From Azolla caroliniana (taxonomy: Eukaryota > Plantae > Polypodiophyta), in assembly GCA_043228905.1 (NCBI GenBank), contig JBHGNT010000822.1, positions 1-15,009 on the forward strand: DNA of 15,009 nucleotides, read 5' to 3'. Below are positions 2,841 through 8,116 of the stretch, in pieces. The number at the start of each line of letters is the position of its first letter. Position 1 is the first letter of the stretch. The translations under genes and the position numbers were made by a program. The notes beneath the pieces are model-generated. The model ran no database searches. It saw nothing but the letters and a program-made list of their open reading frames with translations, and was not told where the DNA came from.

Positions 2841-3943
2841 ATATCAAAGGCTTACTATGAAGGTCTAAGAAAAACAAAAATACATCTTTATGGCATTTTT
2901 TCGTTTTAAATGATTTGGGTAGAAGGTTTCTCTCACATAATCAAATATCATAAATAGAAAGTACATAATTAAATATCATAACCAAAAAGTGAAGAAGAAA
3001 GAATGCATCAAGCACATCTACTCTTATATTGGATAATTTTTATATACTAGTGTATTGCAATTGGATGAAGACAATGCATTAGTTGCCATTGATGATGCGC
3101 ACCCAAAGCGAGAATCATGCCACTAGACCAAATGCCCTTGTTACGACTTCATTTTCAGTTTGACCTCAAACGCCTCGCGTCGAGGTTAGGAACGTGGGGG
3201 CATTCGTAGAATTGAACTCAGGATCTCTCGCAACCAAACCAAGAACCATGCCACTAGACCAAATGCCCTTGTTAACCTACAACAAACTTCGTTTTTAGTT
3301 CGAACTCAAACGCCTGTCGTCGACGAACATGGGGCCATTCTGAGAATTCAACTCTGCACCTCTCACACCCAAATCAAGAATCAAGCCACTAGAACAAATG
3401 CCCTTGATAGCCTACGATTTCGTTTTGAGTTCGAACTCAAACATCTCTCATCCAGGTTAGGAACTTGGGGGCATTCCGAGAATTGAACTCGGGGCTTCTC
3501 GCACCCAAAGCGAGAATCATGCCATTCGACCAAATGCCCATGTTAACCTACAACATTGTTTTCAGTTGGAACTCAAATGACTTTCGTCGAGATTAGGAAC
3601 GTGGGCGCATTCCAACAATTGAACTCGGGACCTCACGCACCTGAACCGAGAATCATGCAACTCGACCAAATGCCCTTCTTTTGTGTTTGAAATCAAACAG
3701 CTCTCATCGAGGTTACGAATGTTGGGGCATTCCGAGAATTGTCCTTGGGACCTCTTGCAACCAAAACCAGATTCATGCCAACACCTCTCGTCGAGGTTAG
3801 GAACGTGGGGGCATTCCAAGAATTGAACTCAGGACCTCTCGAACCCAAAGAGAGAATCATGGCACTAGACCAAATGCCCTTCTTAACCAACGACATCGTT
3901 CTCAGTTCGAACTGAGACGCTTCTCATCGAGGTTAGGAACGTT

Positions 3944-4015
3944 GGGGCATTCCGAGAATTGAACTCGGGACCTCTCGCACCCAAAGCAAGAATCATGCCA
4001 CTAGACCAAATGCCC
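3944..4015 (-). tRNA. trnP-TGG: tRNA-Pro(TGG), near-intact copy
   Basis: Differs from the array consensus by one C>T in the anticodon stem, which gives a G-U wobble. A box, B box and acceptor stem are intact. Confidence 0.75.
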
Positions 4016-4079
4016 TTGTTAACCTATGACTTCGTTCATAGTTCAAACTCAAACGCCTCTCGTCAATGTTAGGAATGTG

Positions 4080-4151
4080 GGGGCATTCCGAGAATTGAAC
4101 TAGGGACCTCTCGCACCCAAAGCGAGAATCATGCCACTAAACCAAATGCCC
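4080..4151 (-). pseudogene. tRNA-Pro(TGG) copy with T-stem and D-stem substitutions
   Basis: Full 72 nt. CCGAG>CCTAG in the T-stem and GTCT>GTTT in the D-stem. Confidence 0.7.
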
Positions 4152-5783
4152 TTGTTAACCTACGACTTCATTCACAGTTCGAACTCAGACACTCTTGTCG
4201 GGGTAAGAATGTGGGGGCATTCCTAGAATTAACTCCTTGACCTGTCGCCCCAAAAGCGACAATCACGCCATTAGACAGAATGCCCTTCTTTACCTACGAC
4301 TTCGTTAACAGTTCAAACTCAGACGCACCTCTCATCGAGGTTAGCAACGTGGGGCATTCCAAGAGTCGAACTCAGGACCTCTCGCACCCAAATCGAGAGT
4401 CATGGTGTCGAATGCCTCTAGTCGAGGTTTGGAACGTGGGGGCGTTTCGAGAATTGAACTCGGGACCTCTCGCACCCAAAGAGAGAATCATGCCACTAGA
4501 CCAAATGCCCTTGTTACGACTTCGTTTTCAGTTTGAACTCAAACGCCTCACGTCGAGGTTAGGAACGTGGGGGCATTCGGAGAATTGAACGCGGGATCTC
4601 TCGCAACCAAACCAAGAACCATGACACTAGACCAAATGCCCTTGTTAACATACAACAAACTTCGTTTTCAGTTCGAACTCAAACGCCTATCGTCAAGGAA
4701 CATGGGGGCATTCCAAGAATTCAACTCCGCACCTCTCACACCCAAATCAAAAATCAAGCCACTAGACCAAATGCCCTTGATAGCCTACAACATCGTTTTG
4801 AGTTCGAACTCAAACGTCTCTCGTTCAGGTTAGGAACTTGGGGGCATTCCGAGAATTGAACTCGAGGCTTCTCGCACCCAAAGCGAGAATCATACCAGTC
4901 GACCAAATGCCCATGTTAACGTACAACATTGTTTTCAGTTGGAACTCAAACGCCTCTCGTCGAGGTTAGGAACGTGGGTGCATTCGAGGAATTGAACTCG
5001 GGACCTCGCGCACCCGAACCGAGAATCATGCGACTCGACCAAATGCCCTTATTTGAGTTTGAACTCAAACGGCTCTCATCGAGGTTACGAATGTTGGGGC
5101 ATTCCGAGAATTGTCCTCGGGACCTCTCGCAACGAAAACCAGATTCATGCCAACACCTTTCATCGAGGTTAGGAACGTGGGGGAATTGAACTCGGGACCT
5201 CTCTCACCCAAAGAGAGAATCATGCCACTAGACCAAATGCCCATGTTAACCAACGACGTCGTTCTCAGTTCGAACTAAGATGCAGATCATCGAGGTTAGG
5301 ATTGTTGGGGCATTACGAGAATTGTACTCGGGATCTCTCGCACCCAAAGCGAGAATCATGCCACTAGACAAAATGCCCTTGTTAACTTACAACATTGTTT
5401 TCAGTTAGAACTCAAACGCCTCTCGTCGAGGTTAGGAACGTGGGCGCATTCCAACAATTGAACTCGGGACCTCGCGCACCCGAACCGAGAATCATGCGAC
5501 TCAACCAAATGCCCTTATTTGAGTTGGAACTCAAACGGCTCTCATCGAGGTTACGAATGTTGGGGCATTCCGAGAATTGTCCTCGGGACCTCTCGCAACC
5601 AAAACCAGATTCATGCCAACACCTTTCGTCAAGGTTAGGAACGTGGGGGAATTGAACTCGGGACCTCTCTCACCCAAAGAGAGAATCATGGCACTAGACC
5701 AAATGCCCTTGTTAACCAACGACTTCATTCACAGTTCGTTCTCAGTTCGAACTGAGACGCCTCTCGTCGAGGTTAGGAACGTT

Positions 5784-5855
5784 GGGGCATTCCGAGAATT
5801 GAACTCGGGACCTCTCGCACCCAAAGCGAGAATCATGCCACTAGACCAAATGCCC
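5784..5855 (-). tRNA. trnP-TGG: tRNA-Pro(TGG), intact cloverleaf
   Basis: Acceptor stem GGGCATT/AATGCCC, anticodon arm CTCGC-TTTGGGT-GCGAG, T arm CCGAG-TTCAATT-CTCGG, A box TGGTCTAGTGG, and CAA immediately upstream. Matches the plant cytosolic tRNA-Pro type as I recall it. Confidence 0.9.
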
Positions 5856-5919
5856 TTGTTAACCTACGACTTCATTCACAATTCGAACTCAGACGCCTCT
5901 CGTCGAGGCTAGGAACGTG

Positions 5920-5991
5920 GGGGCATTCTGAGAATTGAACTCGGGACCTCTCGCACCCAAAGCGAGAATCATGCCCCTAGACCAAATGCCC
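5920..5991 (-). pseudogene. tRNA-Pro(TGG) copy with a T-stem mismatch and a D-loop substitution
   Basis: Full 72 nt. CTCGG>CTCAG in the T-stem and AGTGG>AGGGG in the D-loop. Confidence 0.65.
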
Positions 5992-6055
5992 TTGTTAACC
6001 TACGACTTCGTTCACAGTTAAAACTCAAACGCCTCTCGTCGAGGCTAGGAACGTG

Positions 6056-6263
6056 GGGGCATTCCGAGAATTGCACTCGGGACCTCTCGCACCCAAAGCA
6101 AGAATCATGCCACTAAACCAAATGCCCTTGTTAACCTACGACTTCGTTCACAGTTAAAACTCAAACGCCTCTCGTCGAGGCTAGGAACGTGGGGGCATTC
6201 CGAGAATTGCACTCGGGACCTCTCGCACCCAAAGCAAGAATCATGCCACTAAACCAAATGCCC
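6056..6263 (-). pseudogene. Two identical tRNA-Pro(TGG) pseudogenes (6056-6127 and 6192-6263) with a broken B box
   Basis: The T-loop reads GTGCAA instead of GTTCAA. Monomers 5992-6127 and 6128-6263 are identical. Confidence 0.8.
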
Positions 6264-8116
6264 TTGTTAACCTATGACTTCGTTCACAGTTCGAACTCAG
6301 ACGTCTCTCGTCGAGGTTAAGAACGTGTGGGCATTCCTAGAATTTACTCCTGACCTGTCGCACCAAAAGCGAGAATCACGCCATTAAACAAAATGCCCTT
6401 CTTTACCTACGACTTTGTTCACAGTTCGAACTCAGACGCCTCTCATCGAGGTTAGGAATGTGGGGCATTCCATGAATCGAACTCAGGACCTCGTGCACCC
6501 AAATCGAGAGTCATGGTGTCGAACGCCTCTCGTCGAGGTTCAAAACGTGGGGGCATTCCGAGAATTGATCTCGGGCCCTCTCGCACCCAAAGCGAGAATC
6601 TTGCCACTAGACCAAATGCCCTGGTTACGACCTCGTTTTCAGTTCGAACTCAAACGCCTCGCGTCGAGGTTAGGAACGTGGGGGCATTCGAAGAATTGAA
6701 CGCGGGACCTCTCGCACCTAAAGCGGGAATCATGCCACTAGACCAAATGGCCTTGTTAACCTACGACTTCATTTTTAGTTTGAAATCAAACACCTCACGT
6801 CGAGGATAGGAATTGTTAACCGACTACTTCGTTTTGAGTTCGACCTCAAACTCAGCCTCTCGTCGAGGTTAGAAATGTGGGGGATTCGAAGAATTGAACT
6901 CGGGACCTCTTGCACCCAAAGGGAGAATCACGCCAGTCTACCAAATGTGCTTGTTAACCGACGACTTCGTTTTCATTTCGAACTCAAACGCCTCTCATTG
7001 ACGATAGGAGTGTGAGGGCATTCTGAGAATGGAACTTGGGACCTCTCGCACCCAAAGTGAGAATCACACCACTAGACCAAATGCCCTTGTTGACCTACGA
7101 CTTTGTTAGTTTTTAGTTCGAACTCAAATGCTTCTCGTCGAGGTTAGGAATGTAGGGTATTTCGAGAATTGAAGTCAGGACCTCTCGCACCCAAAGCGAG
7201 AATCATGCCACGAAACCAAATGCCTTTGTTAACCTACGACTTCAAACACGTTTGCGTTCACAAGTGGAAGGATCGCCCACAAGTGGAAGGATAAGGAATA
7301 TTCTGTTTGATTTTGGGGTTTTTTTTGCCATTTCACAAAACATCTTGATACTAGTATCACATGTTCTCCAAAACTTGATGAAAAAGTTGAAAATTTCACC
7401 ATTTGGTAAAATTGAAAAATGCCAAATTTGGGTAAAATATGAAAAGTAACTTTGTGGATTTTTAAAGAAAAATGACAACTAATAAGTTTTTAGATCTTAA
7501 AGAAATCAAAGTAGAATATTTCAAAACAATGAACGTTTTTATTCCATTCGATAAAATGTTGTCTAAATTTGTTACATATAGTTGCACAACAAATACATTT
7601 GGGAGTTATTTGCATGACTATCATCATTCTTTTCATGATAATCACTACTATAGATAATATACAATTGTGACTCTTCCTCCTCATCTTCTAATGTACCAAT
7701 CAAATCATTGTCTTCACCAAATGGTATCTCCAAATTTTGTGCAATAAATCTTCTTCGTCTTCAATCTGAGATATCTTCTAGACTTGCTAATATCTCTTTT
7801 ATTATGCATATCGTTGTTGTCCTTATACATCCAACTTTTATTTGTGTAAAGTCATACATAATGATATCCACCTCATTAATGTCAATGATAGATGTATTAC
7901 AAAGGTTTTATGCATCATCACGTCCAAAACTTTACCAATGCAGAATTGGTACCCTAGGTCATGGCCATCTACATGTGTAGCTATTAATATCCTCACCTTG
8001 ACTTCTTGCAAGTTTCCTTGTCACCTGAGTTATGCTTGTGTTGTCATCATTCGTTCCAACTATAAAGATCAACATTAAGTAGTGATTGAGAACCACACGA
8101 ACACTTTATGGACCGT

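What the first reader, a model, noticed from the sequence alone, without database searches (positions are those of the whole stretch)
3098..7244. Terminator-less tRNA-Pro / hairpin array: a possible natural polycistronic tRNA-spacer cassette
Seen: about 33 head-to-tail tRNA-Pro(TGG) units are separated by a conserved 64-nt spacer. On the transcribed (minus) strand the consensus spacer is CACGTTCC-TAACCT-CGAC-GAGAGG-CGTTT-G-AGT-TCGA-ACT-GA-AAACG-AA-GTCG-T-AGGTTA-ACAA. Its longest T run is three, and nearly all of it folds into one imperfect hairpin (TAACCT/AGGTTA, CGAC/GTCG, CGTTT/AAACG, AGT/ACT). Known: Pol III normally stops at four or more Ts just after a tRNA. RNase P/RNase Z release RNAs linked to tRNAs, as in plant tRNA-snoRNA dicistrons, gammaherpesvirus tRNA-miRNA TMERs and engineered tRNA-gRNA arrays. 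Tandem tRNA-Pro clusters as such are known in plants. Inference: transcription from intact units (5784-5855, 3944-4015) would read through and could release ~64-nt hairpin RNAs or siRNA precursors. Alternatively this is a silenced tRNA-derived satellite, since most copies are decayed.
Basis: partly seen in the sequence, partly recalled or inferred. Interest (0 to 1): 0.8.

Follow-up and report, generated by a model that had tools for sequence, protein, structure and literature searches.

The report
Decaying tRNA-Pro satellite in a fern
About 33 head-to-tail copies of a proline tRNA gene without a stop signal are part of a large, mostly broken repeat in what is likely a fern genome; the spacer's hairpin is no more stable than chance and is likely a worn-down half tRNA, so this is likely a silenced tRNA-derived satellite rather than a natural RNA-release cassette.

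Summary
The array is real: 33 tRNA-Pro-derived units in 3098-7244, a 64-nt consensus spacer without a T4 run, folding as drawn. It continues past a transposon and matches a 190-kb locus (G000:C3) with about 350 unit matches. The cassette idea fails its sequence tests: spacer folding z -0.74, no covariation (45 double changes against 40 expected), and the basal stem is missing from homologous arrays on C7, C12 and C13. Those arrays link the spacer core to a decayed copy of the tRNA's own 3' half. The tRNA body equals the dispersed Pro(AGG) genes except at the anticodon; intact Pro(TGG) genes with another body and terminators lie elsewhere. CG sites diverge about four times faster than A/T sites in both halves, as expected under methylation. 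Against pure decay: 18 of 207 tRNAs stay intact (1.4 expected). Terminator-less arrays of Lys, Arg and other Pro genes exist in the same genome, which is the one surprising point. No RNA data were obtained. Verdict: likely a silenced tRNA-derived satellite; interest 0.3.

The parts
3098..7244 (-). Main block of the tandem array: 33 tRNA-Pro-derived units of about 136 bp, with higher-order repeats (466-bp period at 4717-5993; a block repeated at an offset of 1373 bp)
5784..5855 (-). Fully intact tRNA-Pro unit, anticodon TGG; identical to 7 of 7 dispersed Pro(AGG) genes examined except at the first anticodon base
   Evidence: (57 bits)
3944..4015 (-). Second near-intact tRNA-Pro(TGG) unit (1 difference, pairing kept)
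5856..5919 (-). Example of the 64-nt spacer: about 17 nt of old 3' flank, about 30 nt inferred to be a decayed tRNA 3' half (variable loop and T arm), and a 5' flank ending in the CAA motif
5601..5604 (-). First T4 run downstream of the intact unit 5784-5855 (about 180 nt), inside a decayed neighbour
3763..3766 (-). First T4 run downstream of the unit 3944-4015 (about 178 nt)
7245..12619 (.). 5.4-kb insertion with terminal inverted repeats of about 28 bp that splits one spacer; absent at the matching site G000:C3:9444128
12620..12795 (-). Continuation of the array after the insertion (rest of the split spacer, one spacer, one tRNA unit)
14747..15009 (-). Further degenerate units up to the contig end

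Best explanation
This is likely a methylated, decaying satellite that grew out of a proline tRNA gene, not a cassette for releasing a hairpin RNA. Shown: the tRNA half is the genome's Pro(AGG) gene body with a changed first anticodon base; the same 3' trailer follows tRNA-Pro units in arrays at five places of the genome; the copies carry mostly CG-type damage in both halves; transposons have inserted. Inferred order of events: a Pro(AGG) gene gained a second copy of its own 3' half about 17 nt downstream, leaving no T4 run in the unit; this unit spread to several loci, changed A to T in the anticodon in some of them, and was amplified head-to-tail by unequal recombination (higher-order repeats); CG methylation then silenced it and drove C-to-T decay. 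The spacer hairpin would be a by-product: its tip is the old T arm, and its base is a local inverted match found only in this array. If Pol III still starts at one of the few intact copies, it would read through to the first T4 run about 180 nt on; RNase P and RNase Z could free a tRNA and the trailer would be waste.
For: Body identity: 1 difference (anticodon) from 7 of 7 dispersed Pro(AGG) genes, 7-8 differences from 10 of 10 Pro(TGG) genes examined, which have T4 within 12 nt and AT-rich leaders, so decoding of CCA does not depend on the array. Spacer origin: trailer consensuses of C13, C3b and C7 align with the tRNA 3' half (0, 0 and 3 of 1000 shuffles score as high) and with the window spacer (0 of 1000 each) over the same segment; single C13 trailers hold a nearly perfect tRNA 3' end. 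Decay: in 348 C3 unit matches CG sites diverge 0.30 (tRNA) and 0.29 (spacer), A/T sites 0.066 and 0.079; invariant tRNA positions are not protected (p 0.46 and 0.54); in 22 nearest pairs differences are 0.072 and 0.080 per site (p 0.48); in 14 pairs chosen by neighbours only, private changes are 0.120 and 0.110 (p 0.55). Hairpin: z -0.74 for the consensus, median -0.47 and 9 of 144 copies below -2; paired cells 0.837 against 0.835 in shuffles; 45 double changes against 40 expected; same result on 15 distinct window spacers; basal-stem motif in 9 of 26 window spacers and in 0 spacers of the other arrays. Arabidopsis tRNA clusters are CG-methylated and silent in the tissues tested (PMC7544208, passages).
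Against: 18 of 207 full-length tRNA halves keep all invariant bases and stems, against 1.4 expected from column shuffles (maximum 6). Damage per unit is overdispersed in the tRNA half (variance/mean 1.55, null 0.85) but not in the spacer (0.86, null 0.81), and intact tRNAs do not have younger spacers. CHH-context sites diverge less in the tRNA than in the spacer (0.11 against 0.21, p 6e-5). The tRNA consensus differs from the Pro(AGG) body by at most two bases in each related array while the spacers diverged widely. So the tRNA half was constrained or converted at least in the past, and some copies may still work. The direct alignment of the window spacer with the tRNA is not significant (792 of 2000 shuffles); homology rests on the bridge through other arrays. 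Methylation is inferred from the mutation pattern, not measured.
Confidence: 0.72

Rival explanations
1. A tRNA gene cluster under birth and death in which a minority of copies (about 5-10%) are still transcribed, perhaps in one tissue, give tRNA-Pro(UGG) by read-through and processing, and are kept by selection; the rest are pseudogenes and the spacer has no role.
For: Excess of intact tRNA halves (18 of 207 against 1.4), overdispersion in the tRNA half only, CAA kept at the 3' end of 16 of 26 window spacers, tRNA consensus conserved across arrays. The Arabidopsis Ser/Tyr cluster is silent in most tissues and reactivated in root tips (PMC12308677, start of abstract and title in listing, passages; PMC13437025, passages).
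Against: No protection of invariant bases overall; equal recent decay in both halves; weak AT-rich leader (0.61 against 0.75-0.94 in dispersed genes) and T4 within 25 nt in only 1 of 24 window units against 16 of 19 non-array genes; dedicated Pro(TGG) genes exist elsewhere. Gene conversion among tRNA halves or uneven ages could also give the excess.
Confidence: 0.16
2. A natural polycistronic tRNA-spacer cassette: Pol III reads through many units and RNase P/Z release a functional 64-nt hairpin RNA or siRNA precursor.
For: The consensus unit has no T4 run and the spacer folds into the hairpin as drawn. In flowering plants the few tRNA genes without poly(T) form tRNA-snoRNA dicistrons (PMC8166872, passages citing Michaud et al. 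2011 and Kruszka et al. 2003).
Against: Folding not above shuffles; no covariation; no Rfam match down to E 10; no C box in the consensus (sequence); basal stem absent from homologous arrays whose spacers vary from about 28 to 160 nt; T4 runs every few units cap any transcript; most flanking tRNAs are too damaged to be good RNase P/Z substrates.
Confidence: 0.05
3. A SINE-derived satellite: the unit (tRNA head plus trailer) spread between chromosomes through an RNA intermediate, which needs an intact promoter and no early terminator, and was then amplified in tandem.
For: Same trailer at five loci on four chromosomes; intact tRNA head in every array consensus while spacers diverged; no terminator. 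SINE-derived satellites are described in reptiles (PMC10702118, passages).
Against: No dispersed monomer was seen: an exact 27-nt spacer pattern occurs 5 of 5 times in C3 or the window, and the full-unit matches among the 150 of 279 listed are all on C3 or the window. No A-rich or simple-repeat tail in the unit. The head is a complete tRNA, not a diverged one.
Confidence: 0.07

Closest known systems
Clustered tRNA-Pro genes of Arabidopsis and other plants (PMC7544208, PMC12652284, PMC13437025, PMC13578239; passages read)
   Same: Head-to-tail homocluster of tRNA-Pro; CAA motif upstream; CG methylation (here inferred); extra copies beside dispersed working genes.
   Different: Arabidopsis clusters keep poly(T) terminators (median longest run five) and AT-rich leaders and are near-intact; here the unit has no T4 run, is only 136 bp, has hundreds of copies of which about 9% are intact, and the spacer holds a decayed half tRNA.
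tRNA-related tandem repeats of amphibians (PolIII/TAN, OAX, Rana/polIII) and SINE-derived satellites of reptiles (as described in PMC10702118, passages)
   Same: Tandem repeat whose unit contains a tRNA-derived Pol III promoter region and an unrelated or duplicated part; no decoding role needed.
   Different: Here the consensus head is still a perfect tRNA, the source gene family is identifiable in the same genome, and no parent SINE was seen.
Plant tRNA-snoRNA dicistrons (Kruszka 2003, Michaud 2011, seen only as cited in PMC8166872); TMERs and engineered tRNA-gRNA arrays (recalled, no call)
   Same: A tRNA gene without poly(T) followed at once by another sequence.
   Different: No conserved cargo RNA: no Rfam match, no C box, no covariation, no terminator after the spacer, and most tRNAs decayed.

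Membership tests
Plant tRNA-snoRNA dicistron / tRNA-released RNA cassette | Intact tRNA gene without a poly(T) signal right after it | tested here: met
   True for 5784-5855 and 3944-4015; 1 of 24 near-full window units has T4 within 25 nt; only 4 window units are structurally intact.
Plant tRNA-snoRNA dicistron / tRNA-released RNA cassette | Cargo is a recognisable or structurally conserved RNA | tested here: not met
   No Rfam match to spacers at E up to 10; z -0.74; no covariation; basal stem absent in homologous arrays.
Plant tRNA-snoRNA dicistron / tRNA-released RNA cassette | Co-transcription and release by RNase P/Z | not testable with these tools
Clustered functional tDNAs (Arabidopsis Pro cluster type) | Tandem homocluster of one isotype, at least 5 genes in 5 kb | tested here: met
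   16 ARAGORN genes in 4.1 kb.
Clustered functional tDNAs (Arabidopsis Pro cluster type) | Each copy keeps AT-rich leader, CAA and poly(T) terminator | tested here: not met
   CAA in 16 of 26 spacers; leader AT 0.61; T4 within 25 nt in 1 of 24.
Clustered functional tDNAs (Arabidopsis Pro cluster type) | Copies are near-intact tRNA genes | tested here: not met
   18 of 207 full-length units intact; 2 of 207 equal the consensus.
Clustered functional tDNAs (Arabidopsis Pro cluster type) | CG methylation and silence | tested here: inconclusive
   Only the mutation pattern was measured: CG sites about 4 times A/T sites.
tRNA-derived satellite DNA | Long localised head-to-tail array in one orientation | tested here: met
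   311 of 311 tRNA hits on the minus strand in 19 blocks over C3:9.324-9.516 Mb.
tRNA-derived satellite DNA | Higher-order repeats and near-neutral decay of the monomer | tested here: met
   466-bp period, 1373-bp offset; equal recent change in both halves, with the excess of intact tRNAs as a caveat.
tRNA-derived SINE | Dispersed monomers with target-site duplications and an A-rich or simple tail | tested here: inconclusive
   None seen, but the genome searches give lower bounds and array borders were not examined for duplications.

The most novel reading that the evidence does not exclude
In this fern, losing the Pol III terminator is what turns a tRNA gene into an amplifying array: read-through transcription from an intact promoter drives local duplication (or RNA-mediated spread), so terminator-less arrays arise again and again from Pro, Lys, Arg and Ile genes, and their few intact copies still give read-through precursors that are cut into tRNA. 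This would explain the extreme tRNA gene counts reported for a fern genome and make these loci natural tRNA-punctuated transcripts, though without a functional spacer.
Probability: 0.15. Interest if true: 0.65.

Novelty: new variant of a known kind. Interest (0 to 1): 0.3.

Why it matters
As it most likely stands, it is a well-documented case of a tRNA gene turning into satellite DNA, with the source gene, the half-tRNA duplication and an anticodon change all traceable in one genome. It warns that tRNA counts from such genomes (about 7500 reported for Azolla filiculoides; PMC13578239 and PMC13437025, passages) can be inflated by decayed arrays. The pattern that arrays of several isotypes lack terminators while most dispersed genes have them is the opposite of the Arabidopsis Pro cluster and is testable: the AGG-type body with a UGG anticodon is a unique tag for array transcripts. 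A natural tRNA-spacer release cassette would matter much more, but the sequence gives no support for it.

Tried and rejected
Expression: the look-up of sequencing runs listed 10 runs and no RNA holder; this is no evidence either way. No reads or contigs were laid on the array, so presence and spacer variation in other samples or species remain open. Spacer as known RNA: no Rfam match at E up to 10 over four units. C/D snoRNA: no C box in the consensus. H/ACA snoRNA: the ACA at the spacer's end is 1 nt from the next tRNA and coincides with the CAA motif, and the 3' side of the internal loop is only 2 nt (sequence); rejected. Antisense fold: z -0.59. Direct spacer-tRNA alignment: not significant; homology was accepted only through the C13, C7 and C3b trailers; the C12 and C12b trailer-tRNA scores were disregarded because short spacers let the next tRNA into the 60-nt window. 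Idea that the arrays are the only source of Pro(TGG): suggested (17 of 17 exact matches in arrays) and refuted; the same check for Lys(TTT) and Arg(TCT) also found dispersed genes with terminators. Idea that TGG arose from CGG by deamination: not favoured, since the 2 dispersed CGG genes have a body 10 bases different. miRNA-family matches in 7200-12700 are all below the gathering score and reflect DNA palindromes. Li et al. 2018 (PMC6786969): main-text passages and a search of 9 supplementary files gave nothing on nuclear tRNA arrays; figures and any part of the supplement not held as text were not seen. Nine literature searches found no description of this array; the library lacks most subscription papers. 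Three look-ups of earlier scan notes gave none on this array.
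Full report
Setting. The window is the whole contig C822 of G000 (523 Mb, 1503 contigs). A tree of 27 ELC/VPS23 proteins places a gene of this genome with the fern Adiantum and unnamed relatives (support 96/97, long branch, so the place is unsure). 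Large parts of the window are collinear with C3:9,434,291-9,444,968 at 91-97% identity, so it is either a divergent second haplotype or a segmental duplicate of that locus; I could not tell which.

Observation. A unit profile finds 387 unit matches, 39 in the window and 348 in 260 kb of C3. 34 lie in 3097-7224 and 33 of these contain tRNA sequence. ARAGORN accepts 16 units and Rfam 13. The array is larger than stated: it resumes at 12620 after a 5.4-kb insertion with terminal inverted repeats that is absent at the matching C3 site, and on C3 it spans 9.324-9.516 Mb in 19 blocks with 311 of 311 tRNA hits on one strand.

Is the hairpin more than chance? No. The window consensus folds at -15.7 kcal/mol, z -0.74, with 209 of 1000 dinucleotide shuffles as good; the all-unit consensus gives z -1.62 (73 of 1000); the tRNA half as a control gives z -2.45 (6 of 500). 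Among 144 of 387 units with a full spacer the median z is -0.47 and 9 are below -2; of 10 window spacers folded with the tool, 1 was below -2. On 143 distinct spacers the 18 pairs are kept in 83.7% of cells against 83.5% after column shuffling, with 45 changes on both sides against 40 expected. On 15 distinct window spacers none of five measures exceeds its shuffles (109-291 of 500). The tRNA stems show no covariation either (41 against 44), as expected for decaying copies, so this test shows only that neither structure is maintained across the bulk of copies.

What the spacer is. tRNA-Pro arrays with a homologous trailer lie on C7 (46 hits), C12 at 19.49 Mb (94), C13 (19 and 14 in two stretches) and C3 at 21.84 Mb (12). 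Their trailer consensuses align with the first 34-48 nt of the window spacer (0 of 1000 shuffles each), and those of C13, C3b and C7 also align with tRNA positions 39-68 (0, 0 and 3 of 1000); several single C13 trailers run on into an almost perfect tRNA 3' end. The window spacer alone does not align significantly with the tRNA (792 of 2000), so the homology is transitive. The lower stem needs a motif near the spacer's 3' end that occurs in 9 of 26 window spacers and in none of the spacers of the other arrays measured, whose lengths range from 28 to 160 nt and whose median z lies between -1.0 and +0.9.

What the tRNA is. The intact unit differs from 7 of 7 dispersed Pro(AGG) genes only at the first anticodon base, and from 10 of 10 non-array Pro(TGG) genes examined (C4, two on C6, C11, and 6 of the 12 matches in a loose group on C13) at 7-8 positions. 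The related arrays at C12:19.49 Mb and C3:21.84 Mb still have AGG as consensus. So the array is an AGG-type gene with a shifted anticodon, and the genome has separate Pro(TGG) genes. Of 19 non-array Pro genes, 16 have T4 within 25 nt (6 of 7 AGG, 10 of 10 TGG, 0 of 2 CGG; two rows from contig C480 were dropped as array units) and leaders 75-94% AT. Among near-full array units this holds for 1 of 24 in the window, 20 of 169 on C3 and 3 of 36 on C7, with leaders 61-67% AT. Decay has created terminators: 11 T4+ runs lie on the transcribed strand of 3098-7244, the first about 180 nt after each intact unit.

How the copies evolve. Divergence from consensus on C3 is 0.30 and 0.29 at CG sites and 0.066 and 0.079 at A/T sites for tRNA and spacer, mostly transitions at CG: the pattern expected from methylation, which was not measured. 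Invariant tRNA bases are not spared. Recent change is equal in both halves in 22 mutual nearest pairs and in 14 pairs picked by their neighbours only. Results against simple neutrality: CHH-context sites diverge half as much in the tRNA (p 6e-5); high-frequency derived alleles are rarer in the tRNA (3 over 60 sites against 12 over 49); 18 of 207 full-length tRNAs are structurally intact against 1.4 expected; and only the tRNA half is overdispersed. The tRNA half was therefore constrained or converted early on, and a few copies may still be active. The shuffled null ignores relatedness, so the excess is suggestive, not proof of selection.

Genome-wide pattern. Unrelated spacers flank tRNA-Pro in further arrays at C12:4.7, 5.1 and 15.07 Mb, also without terminators (2 of 26, 1 of 43 and 0 of 8 with T4 within 25 nt). 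Of eight stretches picked from an Rfam search because they looked clustered, three held clear arrays: Lys(TTT) on C5 (368-bp period, 0 of 20 with T4 within 25 nt), Arg(TCT) on C11 (0 of 8) and Ile(TAT) on C2 (2 of 7); a fourth on C4 had 1 of 12. Dispersed intact Lys and Arg genes with terminators exist as well, though not all dispersed copies have one. This sample is not unbiased, and non-flowering plants have weaker poly(T) signals in general (PMC13437025, passages).

Mechanism. Shown: unit anatomy, source gene, shared trailer, higher-order repeats (466 bp; 1373-bp offset), mutation pattern, transposon insertion. Inferred: duplication of the 3' half, loss of the T run, anticodon shift, amplification by unequal recombination, methylation and silence. 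From established knowledge: Pol III needs at least four Ts (PMC13437025), and RNase P and Z cut at tRNA ends. Confidence 0.72; rivals are a partly active cluster (0.16), a SINE-derived satellite (0.07) and the cassette (0.05).

Comparison with what is known. Tandem tRNA-Pro genes are common in plants (33 of 50 species; PMC12652284, passages). Arabidopsis clusters keep their terminators and are methylated and silent (PMC7544208, passages), one of them reactivated in root tips (PMC12308677, listing and passages). tRNA-related satellites are described in amphibians and reptiles (PMC10702118, passages). tRNA genes without poly(T) form snoRNA dicistrons in flowering plants (PMC8166872, passages). 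About 7500 tRNA genes are reported for Azolla filiculoides (PMC13578239, outline and passages). TMERs and engineered tRNA-gRNA arrays are recalled, not read here. Nine searches found no account of this array or of terminator-less arrays in ferns.

Verdict. A new variant of a known kind, interest 0.3. The boldest reading left open is that terminator loss itself promotes amplification of tRNA genes in this lineage (probability 0.15, interest 0.65).

Noticed in passing
window 7245-12619: Non-autonomous DNA-transposon-like insertion with terminal inverted repeats of about 28 bp and a probable 4-bp target duplication (2-4 bp depending on where the repeat is taken to start); absent at G000:C3:9444128; related ends occur elsewhere on C3.
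   Followed up: partly
window 8774-11263: 333-bp tandem repeat (98% matches over 9372-10767) with 90-bp palindromes and a tRNA-like segment with A- and B-box-like motifs; ARAGORN at a lowered threshold copies Tyr-like, Rfam gives 19.9 bits, below the cut-off. A second tRNA-derived repeat, nested inside the transposon.
   Followed up: partly
window 12822-13106: Fragment of a gag-polyprotein-type aspartyl protease (Pfam PF13650, E 1.5e-10), part of a broken retrotransposon piece that interrupts the array.
   Followed up: partly
window 2423-3097 and 13699-14371: AT-rich repeat duplicated at 97% identity; one copy abuts the truncated first tRNA unit at 3098.
   Followed up: no
G000:C5:17.89-18.02 Mb, C11:0.69-0.70 Mb, C2:20.11 Mb, C4:19.56-19.57 Mb (L128-L132): Arrays of tRNA-Lys(TTT), Arg(TCT) and Ile(TAT) mostly without a T4 run within 25 nt.
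   Followed up: partly
G000:C12:4.71-4.74, 5.12-5.14 and 15.07-15.11 Mb (L098-L103): Independent tRNA-Pro arrays (CGG, TGG, and AGG at a 3.3-kb period) with a third body type carrying a paired change in the T stem, unrelated spacers and no terminators.
   Followed up: partly
L055 (G000:C1:1745471): A dispersed Pro(AGG) gene is followed by about three tandem copies of a 35-bp trailer whose end resembles the tRNA's last bases, a small-scale example of duplication at a tRNA 3' end.
   Followed up: no
L167, L169-L171, L181-L183: Dispersed copies of only the 3' part of tRNA-Arg(TCT) ending in CCA, in line with earlier scan notes on Gypsy elements of this genome.
   Followed up: no
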